From: a plasmid
Direction: 5' to 3' (one strand)
Assembly: GCF_054482525.1 (NCBI RefSeq)
Contig: NZ_JBTHVG010000005.1
DNA: 4,049 nucleotides
The notes beneath the pieces are model-generated. The model did no database searches, had not been told where the DNA came from, and saw only the letters and a program-made list of their open reading frames with translations. Positions 1-4,049 of the stretch are shown piece by piece (position 1 is the stretch's first letter; the number at the start of each line of letters is the position of its first letter). A program made the translations under genes and the position numbers.

Positions 1-126
1 AACAGGAAGGATGCGTCAGGATCGTTTTCAGCTCGCTGCATAGCTATGCATGAAAGCGAATGGTGATCACTTTGGGAGCTTACGGTGTTCATACCGTCTG
101 TTTTCGACAGTTTTCTCTCCGGGAAG

Positions 127-474
127 CTAATCTGCCATAAGCCTGGATAACAGGGCACGGTGATACTCCGTAATAGCGATCAGCACCTCCGCATACTCCC
201 TGTCCCCGACACGCTTGCCGTCGATAAAGAGTTTTTTCTGTAACGCCCCCAGTCTCATAACTTCTTTCAGTACCCGATCATCAGTCAGTGAGTTAACTTT
301 CTTACCGAGAGCTGCCGCCCGTAAAAAACCGGAAACGGTCTTGCCGCATTCAGCAGCCCTTTTTCTGATTTCCTGGTCTTCTTCTGCCGTCAGACGAACA
401 GGGCGACTGATAGCCCGCCTGCGCGTATTACTTCCACTTCGTTTTGTCATAAAACATGGCTCCGTATCTGACAT
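127..474 (-). CDS. mobC: MobC-family plasmid mobilisation (relaxosome accessory) protein
   Basis: 115-aa ORF whose core (RLTAEEDQEIRKRAAECGKTVSGFLRAAALGKK...) resembles the MobC/MbeC family of small relaxosome proteins. It reads away from the adjacent bom/oriT-like sequence. An alternative start at M9 (ATG at 450) is preceded by GGAG at about 9 nt spacing and may be the true start. Confidence 0.8.
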   Translation of the reverse strand: MSDTEPCFMTKRSGSNTRRRAISRPVRLTAEEDQEIRKRAAECGKTVSGFLRAAALGKKVNSLTDDRVLKEVMRLGALQKKLFIDGKRVGDREYAEVLIAITEYHRALLSRLMAD

Positions 475-560
475 GGGTGTCGGGGCAAAGCCCTGACCAG
501 GGCAATTGTAATAGCGTGCATGTATGCGCGGTATAACAATTGCACATCCTGTCCTGTCAG
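475..560. other. bom/oriT-like transfer origin region (ColE1 type), nick position not determined
   Basis: Begins GGGTGTCGGGGC, which matches my recollection of the pBR322/ColE1 bom region, followed by the hairpin GCCCTG-acc-CAGGGC (~489-502) and the imperfect inverted repeat GCAATTGTAATA...TATAACAATTGC (~502-543). Lies immediately upstream of mobC. By analogy to the ColE1 nic region the nick would fall near 531/532, but this is not verified. Confidence 0.55.
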
Positions 561-733
561 CAAGCTCGAATTACCGACAAAGGCACGGCAGTTTTTTGGC
601 AGTGACAGTGTTGTCTGACAGAAATGCCCGTCAAAAAGCCAAGCGGCAGAATAGCGGCAGCAAAACAGTCGAAAAGTGGTACGCGATATAATCACACAAC
701 GCAGATGACAGACAGAACGGAGAAAACGAAAAG

Positions 734-928
734 ATGAACAAGCAGCAGCAAGCCGTACTCAACATGGCGGGATTCATAAAAAGTCAGAGCCTGACGCTGC
801 TCGAAAAACTGGACGCACTCAATGCCGACGAACAGGCCGCCATGTGTGAGAAACTGCACGAACTCGCAGAAGAACTCCAGAACAGCATACAGACACGCTT
901 TGAAGCGGAAAATCTTACCGGGATATAA
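734..928 (+). CDS. rop: Rop/Rom (RNA one modulator) protein, copy-number control
   Basis: 64-aa ORF MNKQQQAVLNMAGFIKSQSLTLLEKLDALNADEQAAMCEKLHELAEELQ... closely parallels ColE1/pMB1 Rop (recalled as MTKQEKTALNMARFIRSQTLTLLEKLNELDADEQADICESLH...). A GGAG Shine-Dalgarno lies about 8-13 nt upstream of the ATG (acggagaaaacgaaaagATG). Confidence 0.9.
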   Translation: MNKQQQAVLNMAGFIKSQSLTLLEKLDALNADEQAAMCEKLHELAEELQNSIQTRFEAENLTGI

Positions 929-1544
929 CGCATCCGGACAGGATGCAGAACGGCATAGAGGAGCGTAAGGAGAAAATGTCACATAAGGCGCTCTTCCGCT
1001 TCCTCGCTCACTGACTCGCTACGCTCGGTCGTTCGACTGCGGCGAGCGGTGTCAGCTCACTCAAAGGCGGTAATACGGTTATCCACAGAATCGGGGGATA
1101 AAACCGGAAAGAACATGTGAGCAAAAGACAAAGACCCAGAAGAAGGGCGCGCGGGAGGCGTTTTTCCATAGGCTCCGCCCCCCTGACGAGCATCACAAAA
1201 ATCGACGCTCAAGTCAGAGGTGGCGAAACCCGACAGGACTTAAAGATACCAGGCGTTTCCCCCTGGAAGCTCCCTCGTGCGCTCTCCTGTTCCGACCCTG
1301 CCGCTTACCGGATACCTGTCCGCCTTTCTCCCTTCGGGAAGCGTGGCGCTTTCTCATAGCTCACGCTGTTGGTATCTCGGCCCGGTGTAGGTCGTTCGCT
1401 CCAAGCTGGACTGTATGCACGAACCCCCCGTTCAGTCCGACCGCTGCGCCTTATCCGGTAACTATCGACTTGAATCCAAACCGAGAAGACACGACTTATC
1501 GCCACTGGCAGCAGCCACTGGTAACCGAATTAGAGGAGTTAGCC

Positions 1545-1574
1545 TTGAAGTCATGCGCCTGTTAAGGCTAAACT
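1545..1574 (+). promoter_or_regulatory. RNA I promoter (-35 TTGAAG, -10-like TAAACT)
   Basis: TTGAAG at 1545-1550 and TAAACT at 1569-1574, placed as in the pMB1 RNA I promoter relative to the RNA I 5' end. Confidence 0.6.
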
Positions 1575-1580
1575 GAAAGA

Positions 1581-1685
1581 ACAAGTTTTGGTGACTGCGC
1601 TCCTCCAAGCCAGTTACCTCGGCTCAAAGAGTTGGTAGCTCTGAGAACCTTCGAAAAACCGCCCTGCAAGGCGGTTTTTTCGTTT
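1581..1685 (+). ncRNA. RNAI: RNA I antisense copy-number control RNA
   Basis: ACAAGTTTTGGTGACTGCGCTCCTCCAAGCCAGTTACCTCGGCTCAAAGAGTTGGTAGCTCTGAGAACC...GCGGTTTTTTCGTTT parallels ColE1-family RNA I (pMB1: ACAGTATTTGGTATCTGCGCTCTGCTGAAGCCAGTTACCTTCGG...). It ends in a GC hairpin plus T-run. Confidence 0.85.
1656..1685 (+). terminator. RNA I intrinsic terminator (hairpin plus T-run)
   Basis: aaaaaCCGCCctgcaaGGCGGttttttcgttt: GC-rich stem CCGCC/GGCGG followed by six T. Confidence 0.7.
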
Positions 1686-1695
1686 ACACAGCAAG

Positions 1696-1724
1696 AGATT
1701 ACGACGAGATAGAAAGGATCTCAA
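1696..1724 (-). promoter_or_regulatory. RNA II promoter (-35 TTGAGA, -10 TAATCT)
   Basis: Minus strand reads cTTGAGAtcctttctatctcgtcgTAATCTc with a 17-nt spacer, closely matching the pMB1 RNA II promoter. Confidence 0.7.
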
Positions 1725-1763
1725 GTTCTCATATCATAAAAACAAGCTGACACATCCACGATG

Positions 1764-1967
1764 TTATACCTTTTGAATCGCTACAGCTTTAAACCCTTTA
1801 TCTGTTTTTTCTAATTTAAACCTAACTAAAATACCTTTACATATATCGACATCATGCCCTAAAAACAAAAAATCATCATACCGAAAGAAAACATCACGTC
1901 CACGCTCACGCCTTATAAAGCCATACCCTTTAACATGGTCATAAAAATTAACAAATCCATTTTCCAT
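1764..1967 (-). CDS. Cold-shock-domain (CspA-like) small nucleic-acid-binding protein; candidate retron effector/accessory protein
   Basis: Core GFVNFYDHVKGYGFIRRERGRDVFFRYDDF aligns to the CspA fold (GxVKWFNxxKGFGFI...DVFVHF) with RNP1-like KGYGFI and RNP2-like VFFRY. The ATG at 1967 lies 4 nt after the RT stop (TGA 1972-1974) and is preceded by AGGTGA, indicating translational coupling. The longest ORF extends to an upstream ATG at 2021 (85 aa) overlapping the RT 3' end; the true start is uncertain. Confidence 0.8.
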   Translation of the reverse strand: MENGFVNFYDHVKGYGFIRRERGRDVFFRYDDFLFLGHDVDICKGILVRFKLEKTDKGFKAVAIQKV

Positions 1968-1971
1968 ATAA

Positions 1972-3111
1972 TCACCTATCTGGAAGTAATGCCACGAGCT
2001 TACGTCTATATAGTTTTGCAAGATTCTTATTAGTCCGCCCTACTATATCAAAATCATAGAGCATCCTATCTATTTTCCTAATCTGATCATCAGTTAAAGG
2101 CGGCGTAAACTTATTTAGATAGTGCTTAGCCATCAACTTTAATTTAGATATCTTGTAATCATCATAAACTGGCATTATCTCAGAAAGAATCGCCCTCAAT
2201 TCAACCGCCTGGACATGCCCAAGCCTCGACATTTGAGCAACCTTGCCAGAGCATCTATTCCATAAATCATGGTACTCTTTCGTATGACGTTCATAAGCAC
2301 CTTGTTTTTTACATATATAAACTAAGTACCTGATATAACGTCTATTTTCTTTTGTTAACTTAGGAACACCATGCTTTACCCACAACCCAGTGACACTAAG
2401 TTTAGAAGACGAATCTTTTGAGTGCTCTATCGTTGTCTTACTTTCATTTATTGAAAGTCTGTACTGATTCACCATTCCGTGAACGAGTTTTATTACTTTT
2501 GTTTTTTCCTCTGATGAAAGATCCTTATCAGAGGATATAGTAATATCATCTAAAAGCCTTGAATATGAAAGCCCCATAGACTTCAATCTATTATAGAGAT
2601 TATACTCACTATTAAAAAATAAAAGATTTGCAATATAACTAGAACAGCACCCACCCTGAGGGACCTTATTATTCAACGTCACAAGTTCCGTTAAGCATAA
2701 AGAAACATCAGGAGAAAAACGCATTAAATTTTTAAAAATAGAACAAACATCTTTTTTACTAATGCTGGGATAAAAATTGGTGATATCAAGACATATAACT
2801 GTTCTTTTCCTAGTATGAACAGCGGCATTAGATATATAATCGCGACCACTTAACGCCCCATGCAAATAATGAGGGTAATCAATTTTCTCAAAAATCTCTT
2901 TATTTATTTTTTTTTGAATTCCTTTCAAAGATCTCTTGGGTTCAAAAATTTGCCTTTCTTTTTTATTCTTCCCTGTTTCAACCTTAAACTGCTTGTACGA
3001 CATCGATACAGACTTGACTATCCAGTCCAATCTTTTTCTTTCTATGCCTAACATCGCAGATAAAGAATCCAAAGATGCAACAGGAGTTCCATTAAACCTG
3101 GGTTTATTCAT
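1972..3111 (-). CDS. Retron-type reverse transcriptase
   Basis: 379-aa ORF with RT motifs in order: NAxxH-like SNAAVH (res 95-99), motif A CLDITNFYPSI (catalytic D109), motif B VPQGGCCSSYIANLLF, motif C YSRLLDDITIS (D188, D189) and VTG (res 240-242). It aligns motif by motif with retron Ec86 RT as I recall it (IDLEDFFPSL / LPQGAPSSPKLANL / YTRYADDLTLS / RKVTGLVI). The ATG lies 7 nt after the a2 repeat. Confidence 0.9.
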   Translation of the reverse strand: MNKPRFNGTPVASLDSLSAMLGIERKRLDWIVKSVSMSYKQFKVETGKNKKERQIFEPKRSLKGIQKKINKEIFEKIDYPHYLHGALSGRDYISNAAVHTRKRTVICLDITNFYPSISKKDVCSIFKNLMRFSPDVSLCLTELVTLNNKVPQGGCCSSYIANLLFFNSEYNLYNRLKSMGLSYSRLLDDITISSDKDLSSEEKTKVIKLVHGMVNQYRLSINESKTTIEHSKDSSSKLSVTGLWVKHGVPKLTKENRRYIRYLVYICKKQGAYERHTKEYHDLWNRCSGKVAQMSRLGHVQAVELRAILSEIMPVYDDYKISKLKLMAKHYLNKFTPPLTDDQIRKIDRMLYDFDIVGRTNKNLAKLYRRKLVALLPDR

Positions 3112-3118
3112 GATGTTT

Positions 3119-3401
3119 GAGTTAAAAGTCGATTAGTTAAAAAGTTTCGATACGTAATCTATTACTTTAAACATAATCAAGCACATAGAAAACAAAAACT
3201 GTGTTTTTTTCAGTGCCTCCAGAGAGCCAACCTCTCTTTTTTTCTTCATCTGACCGTCTCCAGAACAAGATGAAGAGCTCTTGGTTACGTTAATGTTGAT
3301 GTTGATAATAAACATGATGCAACTCCTATTGGTTATGAAATTTTGCCAGACCAGTAGGAAAGCAAGGAAAAACTCTATTGGCTCTTTGGGACTTTTAACT
3401 C
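3119..3401 (-). ncRNA. Candidate retron msr/msd non-coding RNA bounded by a1/a2 inverted repeats
   Basis: Perfect 12-bp inverted repeat: plus-strand gagttaaaagtc at 3119-3130 and gacttttaactc at 3390-3401. On the minus strand this gives 5'-GAGTTAAAAGTC (a1) ... about 260 nt ... GACTTTTAACTC (a2), then 7 nt, then the RT ATG. Internal hairpins include CTTCATCT-n16-AGATGAAG, AGAGAG-gttgg-CTCTCT and AAAAAC-aca-GTTTTT. Exact msr/msd boundaries and the priming G are not determined. Confidence 0.6.
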
Positions 3402-3684
3402 ACATTGCCAGACAATCGTCGCTATTCTTTTAGTGCTGATACACGCTCAGGGGCGTTCTCACCATTAATTAGCGGCCAGGCCGGTCATGATCTCATGCGA
3501 GATCGCCTTAAAAACAAGGCATCGGTTTCCTTGCGCAACATACACGTAACCATTTGTTAAAGAGCGAGAGCCAGGCGTGGTTCGCCCGCTTCGCTGATTA
3601 TTATAAAGTTTTTTATCTTTCTGTCACCAACAAGAAAGCGCCTTATCCTGCCAGCGATAGGCTAAAAGGTATGCAGCATGAGAT

Positions 3685-3921
3685 TCAAATCAACTCAGCT
3701 ACAAAGGCCATAACAACAATCCCAACCTCAGCATCGGCACTCAGGATAATTTTTGAACTAGCATCTCTTAAATTCTGACCGTCAAAGGTTGCTACTTTTT
3801 TTAAAGAGGCATCCCTTAAAACCTTGCCATCAAAAGTCGCTATTTTTCTCGAAAAGGCATCTCTTAAGGTTTTACCGTCAAACCGAGCAACGGTTTTTAA
3901 GTCATTGTTTTTATTGAAATA
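3685..3921 (-). pseudogene. Open frame encoding 16-aa tandem protein repeats with a hydrophobic C-terminus; no canonical start codon, so a possible decayed gene or non-canonical initiation
   Basis: Minus-strand frame from the TAA at 3922-3924 to the TGA at 3685-3687 translates to YFNKNNDLKTVARFDGKTLRDAFSRKIATFDGKVLRDASLKKVATFDGQNLRDASSKIILSADAEVGIVVMAFVAELI*. Differences between repeat copies are largely synonymous third-position changes (GCT/GCG/GCA, GAC/GAT, GGT/GGC, AGA/AGG, AAA/AAG). No ATG, GTG or TTG precedes the repeats; the nearest ATG (3903-3905) is offset by 1 nt and gives M-T-stop. Confidence 0.3.
3761..3904. repeat. Three tandem, diverged 48-bp direct repeats
   Basis: Units at 3761-3808, 3809-3856 and 3857-3904 each begin GCATC(T/C)CTTAA and share an (A/G)CC(G/A)TCAAA block and a T-run; identity is roughly 65-75%. 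Confidence 0.85.
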
Positions 3922-3955
3922 TTAATTTCTCACCAATAGTAATTTAACCAATTGT

Positions 3956-3985
3956 ATTTACCATAATCCCTTAATTGTACGCACC
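3956..3985 (-). other. cer: cer-type XerC/XerD site-specific recombination core (plasmid multimer resolution site; accessory arm extends toward and past the window end)
   Basis: Minus strand reads GGTGCGTACAA-TTAAGGGA-TTATGGTAAAT, matching the ColE1 cer core (XerC arm, 8-bp central region, XerD arm) as I recall it. Accessory sequences would lie on the XerC side at 3986-4049 and beyond. Confidence 0.8.
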
Positions 3986-4049
3986 GCTGAAACGCGCTGA
4001 ACGCGATTCTGACGCAGACACCGCAAAAAGAGATGTTTTACCCCGGGAA

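What the first reader, a model, noticed from the sequence alone, without database searches (positions are those of the whole stretch)
2545..2556. RT catalytic motif C reads LLDD rather than the canonical YxDD
In the alignment with Ec86 RT (YTRYADDLTLS versus YSRLLDDITIS), the position normally occupied by the tyrosine of YADD is leucine here (L186-L187-D188-D189). Both catalytic aspartates and the motif A aspartate (D109) are present, so the enzyme is probably active. The tyrosine to leucine change at a residue that normally contacts the incoming nucleotide is uncommon and may alter substrate selectivity or processivity, or mark a distinct RT subclade.
Basis: partly seen in the sequence, partly recalled or inferred. 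Interest (0 to 1): 0.4.

Follow-up and report, generated by a model that had tools for sequence, protein, structure and literature searches.

The report
Retron Se72 reverse transcriptase LLDD motif
The LLDD sequence really is the catalytic loop of the reverse transcriptase of retron Se72, a well-known plasmid-borne phage-defence system, and leucine in place of the usual tyrosine is a fixed, already documented trait of this branch of retron enzymes, so the finding is correct but ordinary.

Summary
Window 2545-2556 (minus strand) encodes L186-L187-D188-D189 of a 379-aa reverse transcriptase (RT), and an ungapped HMMER alignment puts YSRLLDDITIS on Ec86 YTRYADDLTLS. The window is a complete ~4.05 kb ColE1-type plasmid carrying retron Se72 (Retron-Sen1, type V): ncRNA, RT and a cold-shock-domain effector. 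The retron module is 100% identical to annotated E. coli plasmids.

Leucine at the Tyr position is invariant in 116 of 116 full-length homologues, down to 37% identity (114 LLDD, 2 LIDD). It also occurs in sampled type IV and type VI relatives. Among the 150 nearest 50%-identity cluster representatives the residue is Y in 74, L in 43, F in 32 and H in 1, with at least about 32 changes on a neighbour-joining tree. So LxDD is a lineage signature of type V, nested in a branch where Y, F and L interchange.

It is not new. [quoted passage not shown] The literature reports that Se72 makes DNA in vivo and defends against lambda, so the enzyme is active. Any effect of leucine on processivity or substrate choice is untested.

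Verdict: real, correctly aligned, already known, low interest.

The parts
2545..2556 (-). RT motif C core L186-L187-D188-D189 (the finding)
   Evidence: Translation. Aligned ungapped to YADD of Ec86 RT. Lies at the turn of the beta-hairpin formed by strands 181-186 and 189-194 in the AF2 model.
1972..3111 (-). Retron type V (Se72 family) reverse transcriptase, 379 aa, stop codon included
   Evidence: ORF list. Pfam RVT_1 1.8e-15. PADLOC RT_V 2.6e-127, covering positions 1-374 of the 385-position profile. Best PDB fold matches are all retron RTs. Annotated as a reverse transcriptase in identical plasmids.
2785..2787 (-). Motif A catalytic aspartate D109 (LDITNFYPS)
   Evidence: Aligned to IDLEDFFPS of Ec86. 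Invariant in 60 relatives and in all 137 representatives scored at that column.
2815..2829 (-). Retron-specific region X motif NAxxH (N95-A96-A97-V98-H99)
   Evidence: Residues 93-98 read ISNAAV. H99 is invariant. Motif definition from Mestre et al. 2020.
2386..2394 (-). Retron-specific region Y triplet V240-T241-G242
   Evidence: Residues 236-244 read SKLSVTGLW. V240 and G242 are nearly invariant. Aligned to VTG of Ec86.
1764..1967 (-). Cold-shock-domain effector (67 aa), retron Se72 family effector, stop codon included
   Evidence: Pfam CSD 9.5e-08. PADLOC CSD_V 7.4e-25. NCBIfam NF038236 scores 85.2 bits against a cut-off of 82. Annotated as such in L001 and L002. The same RT-then-CSD order is found in L003, L004 and L005.
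3118..3402 (-). Retron ncRNA (msr-msd region) closed by inverted repeats a1 (3402..3390) and a2 (3130..3118)
   Evidence: 13-nt perfect inverted repeat with 259 nt between the arms, ending 6 nt before the RT start codon. RNA fold -79.7 kcal/mol, z = -4.24. L003 has the same arms and L005 has different but complementary arms. The alifold consensus keeps a1/a2 and an inner stem. The boundaries of the reverse-transcribed part were not mapped here.
3600..3627 (-). Sigma-70-like promoter candidate for the retron operon (GTGACA-16-TATAAT)
   Evidence: Matches 11 of 12 consensus positions, the best in the scanned region. This is a consensus match only, and its function is inferred.

Best explanation
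LLDD is the functional motif C of the RT of retron Se72 (Retron-Sen1, type V), carried on a small ColE1-type mobilizable plasmid.

D188 and D189, together with D109 of motif A, bind the catalytic metal ions. L186 fills the hydrophobic position that in most RTs is a Tyr packing against the primer end. L187 fills the 'x' position next to the incoming nucleotide. Leucine at the first position is an inherited signature of the type V lineage. That lineage sits within a wider group (types IV, V and VI; clade 3 of Mestre et al. 2020) in which Tyr, Phe and Leu have replaced one another many times. The box is best described as 'hydrophobic-hydrophobic-Asp-Asp', as in telomerases.

The enzyme is active. 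It copies part of the upstream ncRNA into a short DNA. With that nucleic acid it is thought to hold the cold-shock-domain effector in check until a phage inhibits RecBCD (lambda Gam), and the effector then stops cell growth.

Shown here: the identity and placement of the motif, its conservation and distribution, and the membership of the locus.
Taken from the literature: DNA synthesis, defence, and the RecBCD trigger.
Inferred: the structural role of L186 and the sequestration model.
For: - Sequence and alignment place L186 on the Tyr of YADD.
- Typing: RT_V 2.6e-127 and CSD_V 7.4e-25; the effector passes the NCBIfam equivalog cut-off.
- The whole window is 98.6% identical to 4050-4052 bp E. 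coli, Salmonella and Shigella plasmids annotated with a 'retron Se72 family effector'. The retron module is 100% identical to NZ_CP066843.1.
- Leu is invariant in 116 of 116 homologues of at least 330 aa, at 37-99% identity. Three of these, at 44-54% RT identity, keep the RT-CSD gene order.
- Nearest 150 representatives: Y 74, L 43, F 32, H 1.
- Sampled typing: RT_IV-best proteins carry L in 5, F in 2 and Y in 1; strong RT_V hits carry L; type VI loci include LTDD and LIDD.
- Neighbour-joining tree: the query lies in a pure-Leu clade of 25 representatives, with at least 32 changes overall and an inferred root state of Tyr.
- The AF2 hairpin geometry fits motif C, and the best fold matches are retron RTs.
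- Literature: the title of the Ec48 RT paper ('LVDD in the YXDD box'), and reports that Se72 synthesises DNA. Se72 defends against phage. Se72 is triggered by lambda Gam and is toxic in delta-recB cells, as is Ec48. hTERT has LVDD, ciliates LTDD and yeast LADD, and L866Y has only a slight effect in hTERT.
Against: - No biochemical test of L186 exists for any retron in the searchable literature. No paper in the library holds both 'retron' and 'LLDD'.
- Absolute invariance of Leu in type V, against free Y/F/L exchange in the sister groups, suggests some lineage-specific constraint that a 'neutral signature' reading does not explain.
- Se72 is reported to make an atypical product with no detected 2'-5' branch, so an active-site adaptation cannot be excluded.
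- The tree used is a quick neighbour-joining tree of cluster representatives. The count of 32 changes is approximate.
- No type IV, V or VI retron structure is solved, so the contacts made by L186 are inferred by homology.
Confidence: 0.85

Rival explanations
1. Leucine is a functional adaptation. L186, possibly together with L187, tunes primer grip or processivity for the unusual chemistry reported for Se72: a short 72-nt product, no detected 2'-5' branch, and second-strand DNA synthesis. Alternatively it could be tied to the RecBCD-guarding role shared with Ec48.
For: - Leu is invariant in 116 of 116 type V RTs, while the sister groups vary.
- Both retrons known to guard RecBCD, Se72 (LLDD) and Ec48 (LVDD), carry Leu.
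- In Tetrahymena and yeast telomerase, changing this Leu to Tyr alters processivity.
- Se72 is reported to depart from the standard retron product.
Against: - Ec48 has LVDD and is described in the literature as producing a multicopy single-stranded DNA, msDNA-Ec48 (reference titles).
- Type IV RTs also include FIDD, FVDD and YVDD members. Type VI RTs, which have unrelated HTH partners, include LTDD and LIDD. Leu therefore tracks neither one effector nor one product type.
- L866Y is nearly neutral in hTERT.
- The association of Leu with other features, such as the C-terminal extension, is confounded by phylogeny.
Confidence: 0.12
2. Alignment artefact: the true YxDD tyrosine is another residue (for example Y183), and the box is shifted.
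For: A tyrosine (Y183) lies three residues upstream and is invariant.
Against: - Ec86 also has that upstream Tyr (YTRYADD against YSRLLDD), so Y183 aligns with the first Y, not with the YADD Tyr. The alignment block covering residues 108-209 has no gap.
- MAFFT alignments of 116 and 150 relatives give the same register.
- The AF2 model puts residues 186-189 at the hairpin turn.
Confidence: 0.01
3. Degenerate or inactive RT: the non-canonical box marks a catalytically dead scaffold protein.
For: Departure from the YxDD consensus.
Against: - All three catalytic Asp residues are invariant under strong conservation.
- The ORF is full length and 100% identical across many plasmids.
- The literature reports RT-dependent DNA production by Se72.
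- Active RTs with LxDD are known, namely telomerases and Ec48.
Confidence: 0.02

Closest known systems
Retron Se72 / Retron-Sen1 (type V retron; Salmonella Enteritidis low-molecular-weight plasmid, Rychlik et al. 2001; Pilousova & Rychlik 2011)
   Same: Effectively the same element. It is a ~4.05 kb ColE1-type plasmid with ncRNA, RT and a cold-shock-domain effector. The window is 98.6% identical to annotated plasmids and the retron module is 100% identical. PADLOC RT_V and CSD_V and NCBIfam retron_eff_Se72 all match.
   Different: No difference in the retron module was detected against NZ_CP066843.1. Outside the module, a neighbouring hypothetical ORF carries a stop codon in this window.
[quoted passage not shown]
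   Same: Leu replaces Tyr at the same position of the box. The RT belongs to the same clade (clade 3) and has a similar length of about 390 aa. Both systems are triggered by RecBCD inhibition. Sampled RT_IV-best relatives carry LVDD, LIDD or LTDD.
   Different: The second residue is V in Ec48 against L here. The effector is a two-transmembrane protein rather than a CSD protein. Type IV is not fixed for Leu (FIDD, FVDD and YVDD members). The Ec48 sequence itself was not retrieved here.
Retron Ec86 / Retron-Eco1 RT (type II-A), the canonical YADD retron RT with solved structures
   Same: Same fold (TM-score 0.78 normalised to Ec86, top PDB hit). The catalytic Asp residues, NAxxH, VTG and the flanking 'Y(S/T)R..DD(I/L)T(I/L)S' context are all shared.
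   Different: YADD against LLDD. About 23% identity. Ec86 lacks the roughly 60-aa C-terminal helical extension. Its effector differs (a nucleoside deoxyribosyltransferase-like protein, against CSD here).
Telomerase reverse transcriptase motif C (hTERT LVDD, ciliate LTDD, yeast LADD)
   Same: A naturally occurring Leu-x-Asp-Asp box in an active RT that copies a short RNA template. The first residue contacts the primer (PMC1851649).
   Different: There is no homology beyond the generic RT palm. The best sequence and fold matches of this protein are retron RTs, not TERT. This is a resemblance in one motif only, reached independently.

Membership tests
Reverse transcriptase (RVT_1) active enzymes | Motif A Asp plus two Asp residues in motif C | tested here: met
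   D109, D188 and D189 are present and invariant in relatives. Pfam RVT_1 scores 57.7 bits against a cut-off of 29.6.
Reverse transcriptase (RVT_1) active enzymes | Canonical Tyr (or Phe) at the first position of the YxDD box | tested here: not met
   L186 aligns to the Tyr of Ec86 YADD. Leu is found in 116 of 116 homologues. This is a consensus feature rather than a requirement: telomerases and Ec48 are LxDD.
Retron RT | Region X NAxxH motif between RT2 and RT3 | tested here: met
   N95-A96-A97-V98-H99, with H99 invariant. Definition from Mestre 2020.
Retron RT | Region Y VTG triplet in RT7 | tested here: met
   V240-T241-G242, aligned to VTG of Ec86.
Retron RT | Fold closest to solved retron RTs | tested here: met
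   AF2 model with pLDDT 95.1. The top 18 Foldseek PDB hits are all retron RTs, with Ec86 first at E 1.1e-18.
Retron (tripartite system) | Structured ncRNA next to the RT gene, closed by inverted repeats a1/a2 | tested here: met
   13-nt perfect inverted repeat at 3402..3390 and 3130..3118, ending 6 nt before the RT start codon. Fold z = -4.24. The repeat geometry is conserved, with changed but complementary arms in L005. There is no Rfam family hit.
Retron (tripartite system) | Priming from the 2'-OH of a conserved branching G, giving 2'-5' linked msDNA | not testable with these tools
   A review states that the Se72 msr lacks an apparent priming G and that no 2'-5' linkage was observed (PMC6868368). 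A conserved AGUC/GAC was seen at the inner end of a1/a2 in 5 loci, but nothing can be concluded from it.
Retron (tripartite system) | RT-dependent synthesis of a short DNA in vivo | not testable with these tools
   Reported for Se72 in the literature cited. The primary papers are not held in the library.
Type V retron (Se72 family) | RT of the type V group | tested here: met
   PADLOC RT_V scores 423.2 bits, against 242.1 for RT_VI and 218.9 for RT_IV.
Type V retron (Se72 family) | Small (67-86 aa) cold-shock-domain protein encoded next to the RT | tested here: met
   A 67-aa CSD ORF starts 4 nt after the RT stop codon. CSD_V 7.4e-25. NF038236 scores 85.2 against a cut-off of 82. Definition. 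Synteny is kept in L003-L005.
Type V retron (Se72 family) | Anti-phage defence triggered by RecBCD inhibition | not testable with these tools
   Literature only: lambda Gam triggers Se72, and Se72 is toxic in delta-recB cells.
Telomerase RT | TERT-specific architecture; best homology to TERT | tested here: not met
   No TERT appears among the sequence matches in PDB or among the top 50 fold matches. Only the LxDD box is shared.

The most novel reading that the evidence does not exclude
The strictly fixed Leu-Leu pair in type V retron RTs could be a mechanistic adaptation rather than a neutral signature. By removing the Tyr ring and hydroxyl that grip the primer end, it might allow the atypical initiation, early termination or second-strand synthesis reported for Se72. 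On this reading, reverting it (L186Y) would change the DNA product and thereby the arming of the cold-shock effector.
Probability: 0.1. Interest if true: 0.45.

Novelty: already known. Interest (0 to 1): 0.1.

Why it matters
It matters little beyond correct annotation. The window is a known plasmid-borne type V retron, and the non-canonical box should not be taken as a sign of an inactive or novel enzyme.

The one useful point is a clean natural experiment. Leu is fixed in type V, while Y, F and L interchange in sampled type IV and VI relatives. No structure of any type IV, V or VI retron was found in the PDB copy searched. An L186Y/F swap combined with a structure could show what the first residue of the YxDD box does in retron RTs. 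That could be relevant to engineering retron RTs for DNA production.

Tried and rejected
- **Shifted alignment (Y183 as the real box Tyr).** Rejected by the ungapped HMMER alignment to Ec86 and by two multiple alignments.
- **Inactive RT.** Rejected because the Asp triad is invariant and DNA synthesis is reported.
- **Leu tied to a single effector type.** Rejected. LxDD is found with CSD (type V) and with HTH partners (type VI), and in RTs that score best against the PADLOC RT_IV model.
- **Rfam search.** It found only the plasmid RNAI and no retron ncRNA family.
- **Primary Se72 papers.** The 2001 and 2011 papers could not be read because they are not held. Statements about them rest on a review and on my own recollection.
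- **Literature searches.** Searches for 'retron' + 'LLDD' and for type V retron / cold-shock / RecBCD papers from 2021 onwards found nothing. The retron census preprint contains none of the type, clade or motif terms searched.
- **Covariation scan for residues coupled to L186.** It recovered mainly the presence of the C-terminal extension. That is a phylogenetic signal, not a compensatory contact.
- **Control search of an Ec86-like (type II) clade.** I ran no further search on this. That classical retrons use YADD is taken from the review.

Full report
**What is at the coordinates.** Window 2545-2556, read on the minus strand, is CTT TTA GAT GAT, which encodes Leu-Leu-Asp-Asp. The surrounding translation is SMGLSYSRLLDDITISS. 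These are residues 186-189 of a 379-aa ORF at 1972-3111 on the minus strand. The ORF matches Pfam RVT_1 (E 1.8e-15). Among solved structures it matches retron RTs, with Ec86 best at E about 2e-22. In that alignment the block covering residues 108-209 has no gap and pairs 'ysrlldditis' with 'ytryaddltls'. L186 therefore occupies the position of the YADD tyrosine, L187 that of the alanine, and D188/D189 the catalytic pair. D109 in 'LDITNFYPS' pairs with the motif A aspartate of Ec86. The nearby invariant Y183 corresponds to the first Y of Ec86 'YTRY', so the box is not shifted. An AlphaFold2 model built from 60 relatives (mean pLDDT 95.1) has strands at 181-186 and 189-194 with L187-D188 at the turn, which is the usual motif C hairpin.

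**What the locus is.**
- The whole window matches complete circular plasmids of 4050-4052 bp from E. coli, Salmonella enterica and Shigella flexneri at 98.6% identity over 100% of its length. The window is essentially one whole plasmid.
- The backbone is ColE1-like: RNAI at 1583-1683 (Rfam 94.6 bits), Rop at 734-928, and a NikA/MobA-like protein at 127-474.
- The cargo is a retron. PADLOC types the RT as RT_V (E 2.6e-127), well ahead of RT_VI and RT_IV.
- Four nucleotides after the RT stop codon lies a 67-aa cold-shock-domain ORF (1764-1967). It matches CSD_V (7.4e-25) and passes the NCBIfam equivalog cut-off for 'retron Se72 family effector protein' (85.2 against 82 bits). It carries that annotation in the matching plasmids.
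- Upstream of the RT, a 13-nt perfect inverted repeat (3402..3390 and 3130..3118, with 259 nt between the arms) ends 6 nt before the RT start codon. The enclosed RNA folds well below shuffled controls (z = -4.24).
- In related loci the same repeat geometry recurs, with identical arms in a Leclercia-type locus and different but complementary arms in a Vibrio cholerae locus. A consensus fold keeps the closing stem and an inner stem.
- The RT carries the retron hallmarks NAxxH (N95..H99) and VTG (V240-G242) (definitions).
- The retron module 1764-3420 is 100% identical to E. coli plasmid NZ_CP066843.1 and is present in 28 PLSDB plasmids.
- This is retron Se72 (Retron-Sen1), which Mestre et al. 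2020 list as the named example of type V in their Table 1. It was first described on a low-molecular-weight Salmonella Enteritidis plasmid (reference list). My recollection that the plasmid was 4,053 bp is not tool-verified.

**How common the leucine is.**
- Among 116 homologues of at least 330 aa found in the 5.8-billion-protein collection (37-99% identity), the position is Leu in all 116. The box is LLDD in 114 and LIDD in 2.
- Three such RTs, at 54, 48 and 44% identity (Leclercia-type, Pseudomonas, Vibrio cholerae), are each followed directly by a 67-72-aa CSD gene. The Leu-bearing family is therefore the type V family.
- Further out, among the 150 best representatives of 50%-identity clusters (E down to about 1e-34), the position is Y in 74, L in 43, F in 32 and H in 1. 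The second residue is mostly V, I or L rather than the Ala of classical YADD.
- PADLOC typing of 30 of these representatives:
  - Proteins scoring best as RT_IV: Leu in five (LVDD, LIDD, LTDD), Phe in two, Tyr in one.
  - Proteins scoring strongly as RT_V: Leu.
  - The shorter (about 315-330 aa) relatives: a mix of Y, F and L.
- Two of the short Leu-bearing relatives (LTDD, LIDD) sit directly behind a Cro/C1-type HTH gene and a small 76-79-aa gene. That is the type VI arrangement described by Mestre et al..
- On a neighbour-joining tree of 138 near-full-length representatives, the query lies in a pure-Leu clade of 25. That clade is nested in a group of 33 (30 L, 2 F, 1 Y). Parsimony needs at least 32 changes at this column, with Tyr inferred at the root. 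The tree is quick and approximate.
- In short, Leu is fixed in type V and present in sampled type IV and VI relatives, in a branch where Y, F and L interchange readily. Mestre et al. place types IV, V and VI in their clade 3.

**What is already known.**
[quoted passage not shown] From my own knowledge, not checked here, this is the Ec48 (type IV) RT. The same group described msDNA-Ec48.
- The 2019 review states that retron RTs typically have YADD, with variants such as YCDD in Ec107.
- Se72 has been re-examined as a defence system. It protects against one phage in the Millman et al. screen. Lambda escape mutants map to the gam-bet-exo operon. Gam expression is toxic only with Se72 present, and the system cannot be established in delta-recB cells. 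The authors note that Se72 and Ec48 share closely related RTs but unrelated effectors.
- No paper in the searchable library holds both 'retron' and 'LLDD'. The explicit statement that LLDD is invariant in type V may therefore not be written down, but it follows directly from public sequences.
- Outside retrons, telomerases naturally use the same box (hTERT LVDD, ciliate LTDD, yeast LADD). L866Y in hTERT causes only a slight loss of activity with no change in fidelity or processivity. The equivalent swaps changed processivity in opposite directions in Tetrahymena and yeast. The second residue (V867, equivalent to HIV-1 M184) is the one that governs nucleotide incorporation.

**How it most likely works.** D109, D188 and D189 bind the catalytic metal ions. 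This is inferred from homology and supported by their invariance. L186 supplies a hydrophobic surface under the primer end in place of the Tyr ring. L187 lines the nucleotide pocket. These roles are inferred from HIV-1 RT and hTERT as summarised. No type IV, V or VI retron structure was found in the PDB copy searched, and the best fold matches are Ec86, Eco2, Eco7, Ec78, Ec83 and Eco8. The RT copies part of the 285-nt ncRNA into a short DNA. The review reports an atypical product for Se72 with no detected 2'-5' branch. The RT-nucleic acid complex is thought to restrain the CSD effector until RecBCD is inhibited (model). How the CSD protein arrests growth is unknown.

I hold the 'inherited, tolerated lineage signature in an active enzyme' reading at about 0.85. 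The alternative is that the fixed Leu is an adaptation to Se72's unusual synthesis or to RecBCD guarding. The strict invariance in type V keeps that alternative alive. It is weakened because Leu also occurs with other effectors, because type IV contains F and Y members, and because Ec48 is described as making an msDNA. I give it about 0.12. Misalignment and a dead enzyme are effectively excluded.

The alignment, the intact catalytic residues, the expectation of activity and the 'marks a subclade' idea are right. 'Uncommon' holds only against classical YADD retrons. Within this branch, and in telomerases, LxDD is ordinary, and it has been in the retron literature since 1996. Describing the Tyr as the residue that contacts the incoming nucleotide fits the second residue of the box better. 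Effects on selectivity or processivity remain untested.

**Verdict.** A real feature, correctly read, belonging to a well-characterised element. Novelty: already known. Interest: about 0.1.

Noticed in passing
window 3685-3951 (-), stop at about 3922-3924: An 88-aa 'hypothetical protein' annotated in the near-identical plasmid NZ_CP066843.1 is interrupted here by an in-frame TAA (Glu to stop; the plus strand has A at 3924 where L001 has C). The ORF contains three tandem units of about 16 aa (VARFDGKTLRDAF / IATFDGKVLRDAS / VATFDGQNLRDAS). TRF reports a 48-nt period with 2.5 copies at 3761-3882. Function is unknown.
   Followed up: partly
window 3133-3315 (-): A 60-aa ORF lies entirely inside the retron ncRNA. 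ORFs called at the same place in two distant type V loci (L003, 97 aa; L004, 66 aa) share M-I-x-I-N-x-N-x-N-V...SGD...K (44% and 31% identity). Whether this reflects a small protein or only RNA-level conservation is unresolved. It has no NCBIfam match. It may be the 'ORF of unknown function' / 'hairpin-containing ORF' mentioned for Se72 in the review.
   Followed up: partly
window 3405-3413 and 3343-3351 (minus strand reads GTCTGGCAA): A 9-nt exact direct repeat, with one copy just 5' of a1 and one inside the ncRNA. Both copies are conserved in all five type V loci aligned (TTGTCTGGCAA ... ACTGGTCTGGCAAAA). This could be a protein or RT recognition element. It was not tested.
   Followed up: no
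window 3390-3394 and 3128-3130 (inner end of a1/a2): The inner end of the closing stem is conserved as A-G-U-C pairing with G-A-C in all five loci, although the rest of the arms differ in some of them. The review says Se72 has no apparent priming G. This conserved G might deserve a look as a candidate.
   Followed up: no
window 3600-3627 (-): A near-consensus sigma-70 promoter (GTGACA-16 nt-TATAAT, 11 of 12) lies about 190 nt upstream of a1. This implies a long leader before the ncRNA, or a separate upstream transcript.
   Followed up: no
RT residues about 300-379 (window 1975-2214, -): Type IV/V RTs carry an extra, confidently modelled helical C-terminal extension (helices 301-311, 318-334, 341-357 and 362-373). 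It is absent from Ec86 and from the short type VI-like relatives. Its presence is the feature most associated with Leu at position 186, probably through shared ancestry. R359 is nearly invariant.
   Followed up: partly
whole window 1-4049: The window is a complete circular plasmid. Matching records are 4050-4052 bp and align across their origin. Variants of 4148 bp and 4261 bp exist. A Klebsiella/Serratia version carries a retron module that is only about 82% identical, so the retron is moving among Enterobacterales on small mobilizable plasmids.
   Followed up: partly
PDB search with the RT model (not a window coordinate): Structures are solved for retron types represented by Ec86, Eco2/Ec67, Eco7, Ec78, Ec83 and Eco8, and for a type I-A complex. 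No type IV, V or VI retron appears among the listed matches in the PDB copies searched.
   Followed up: yes
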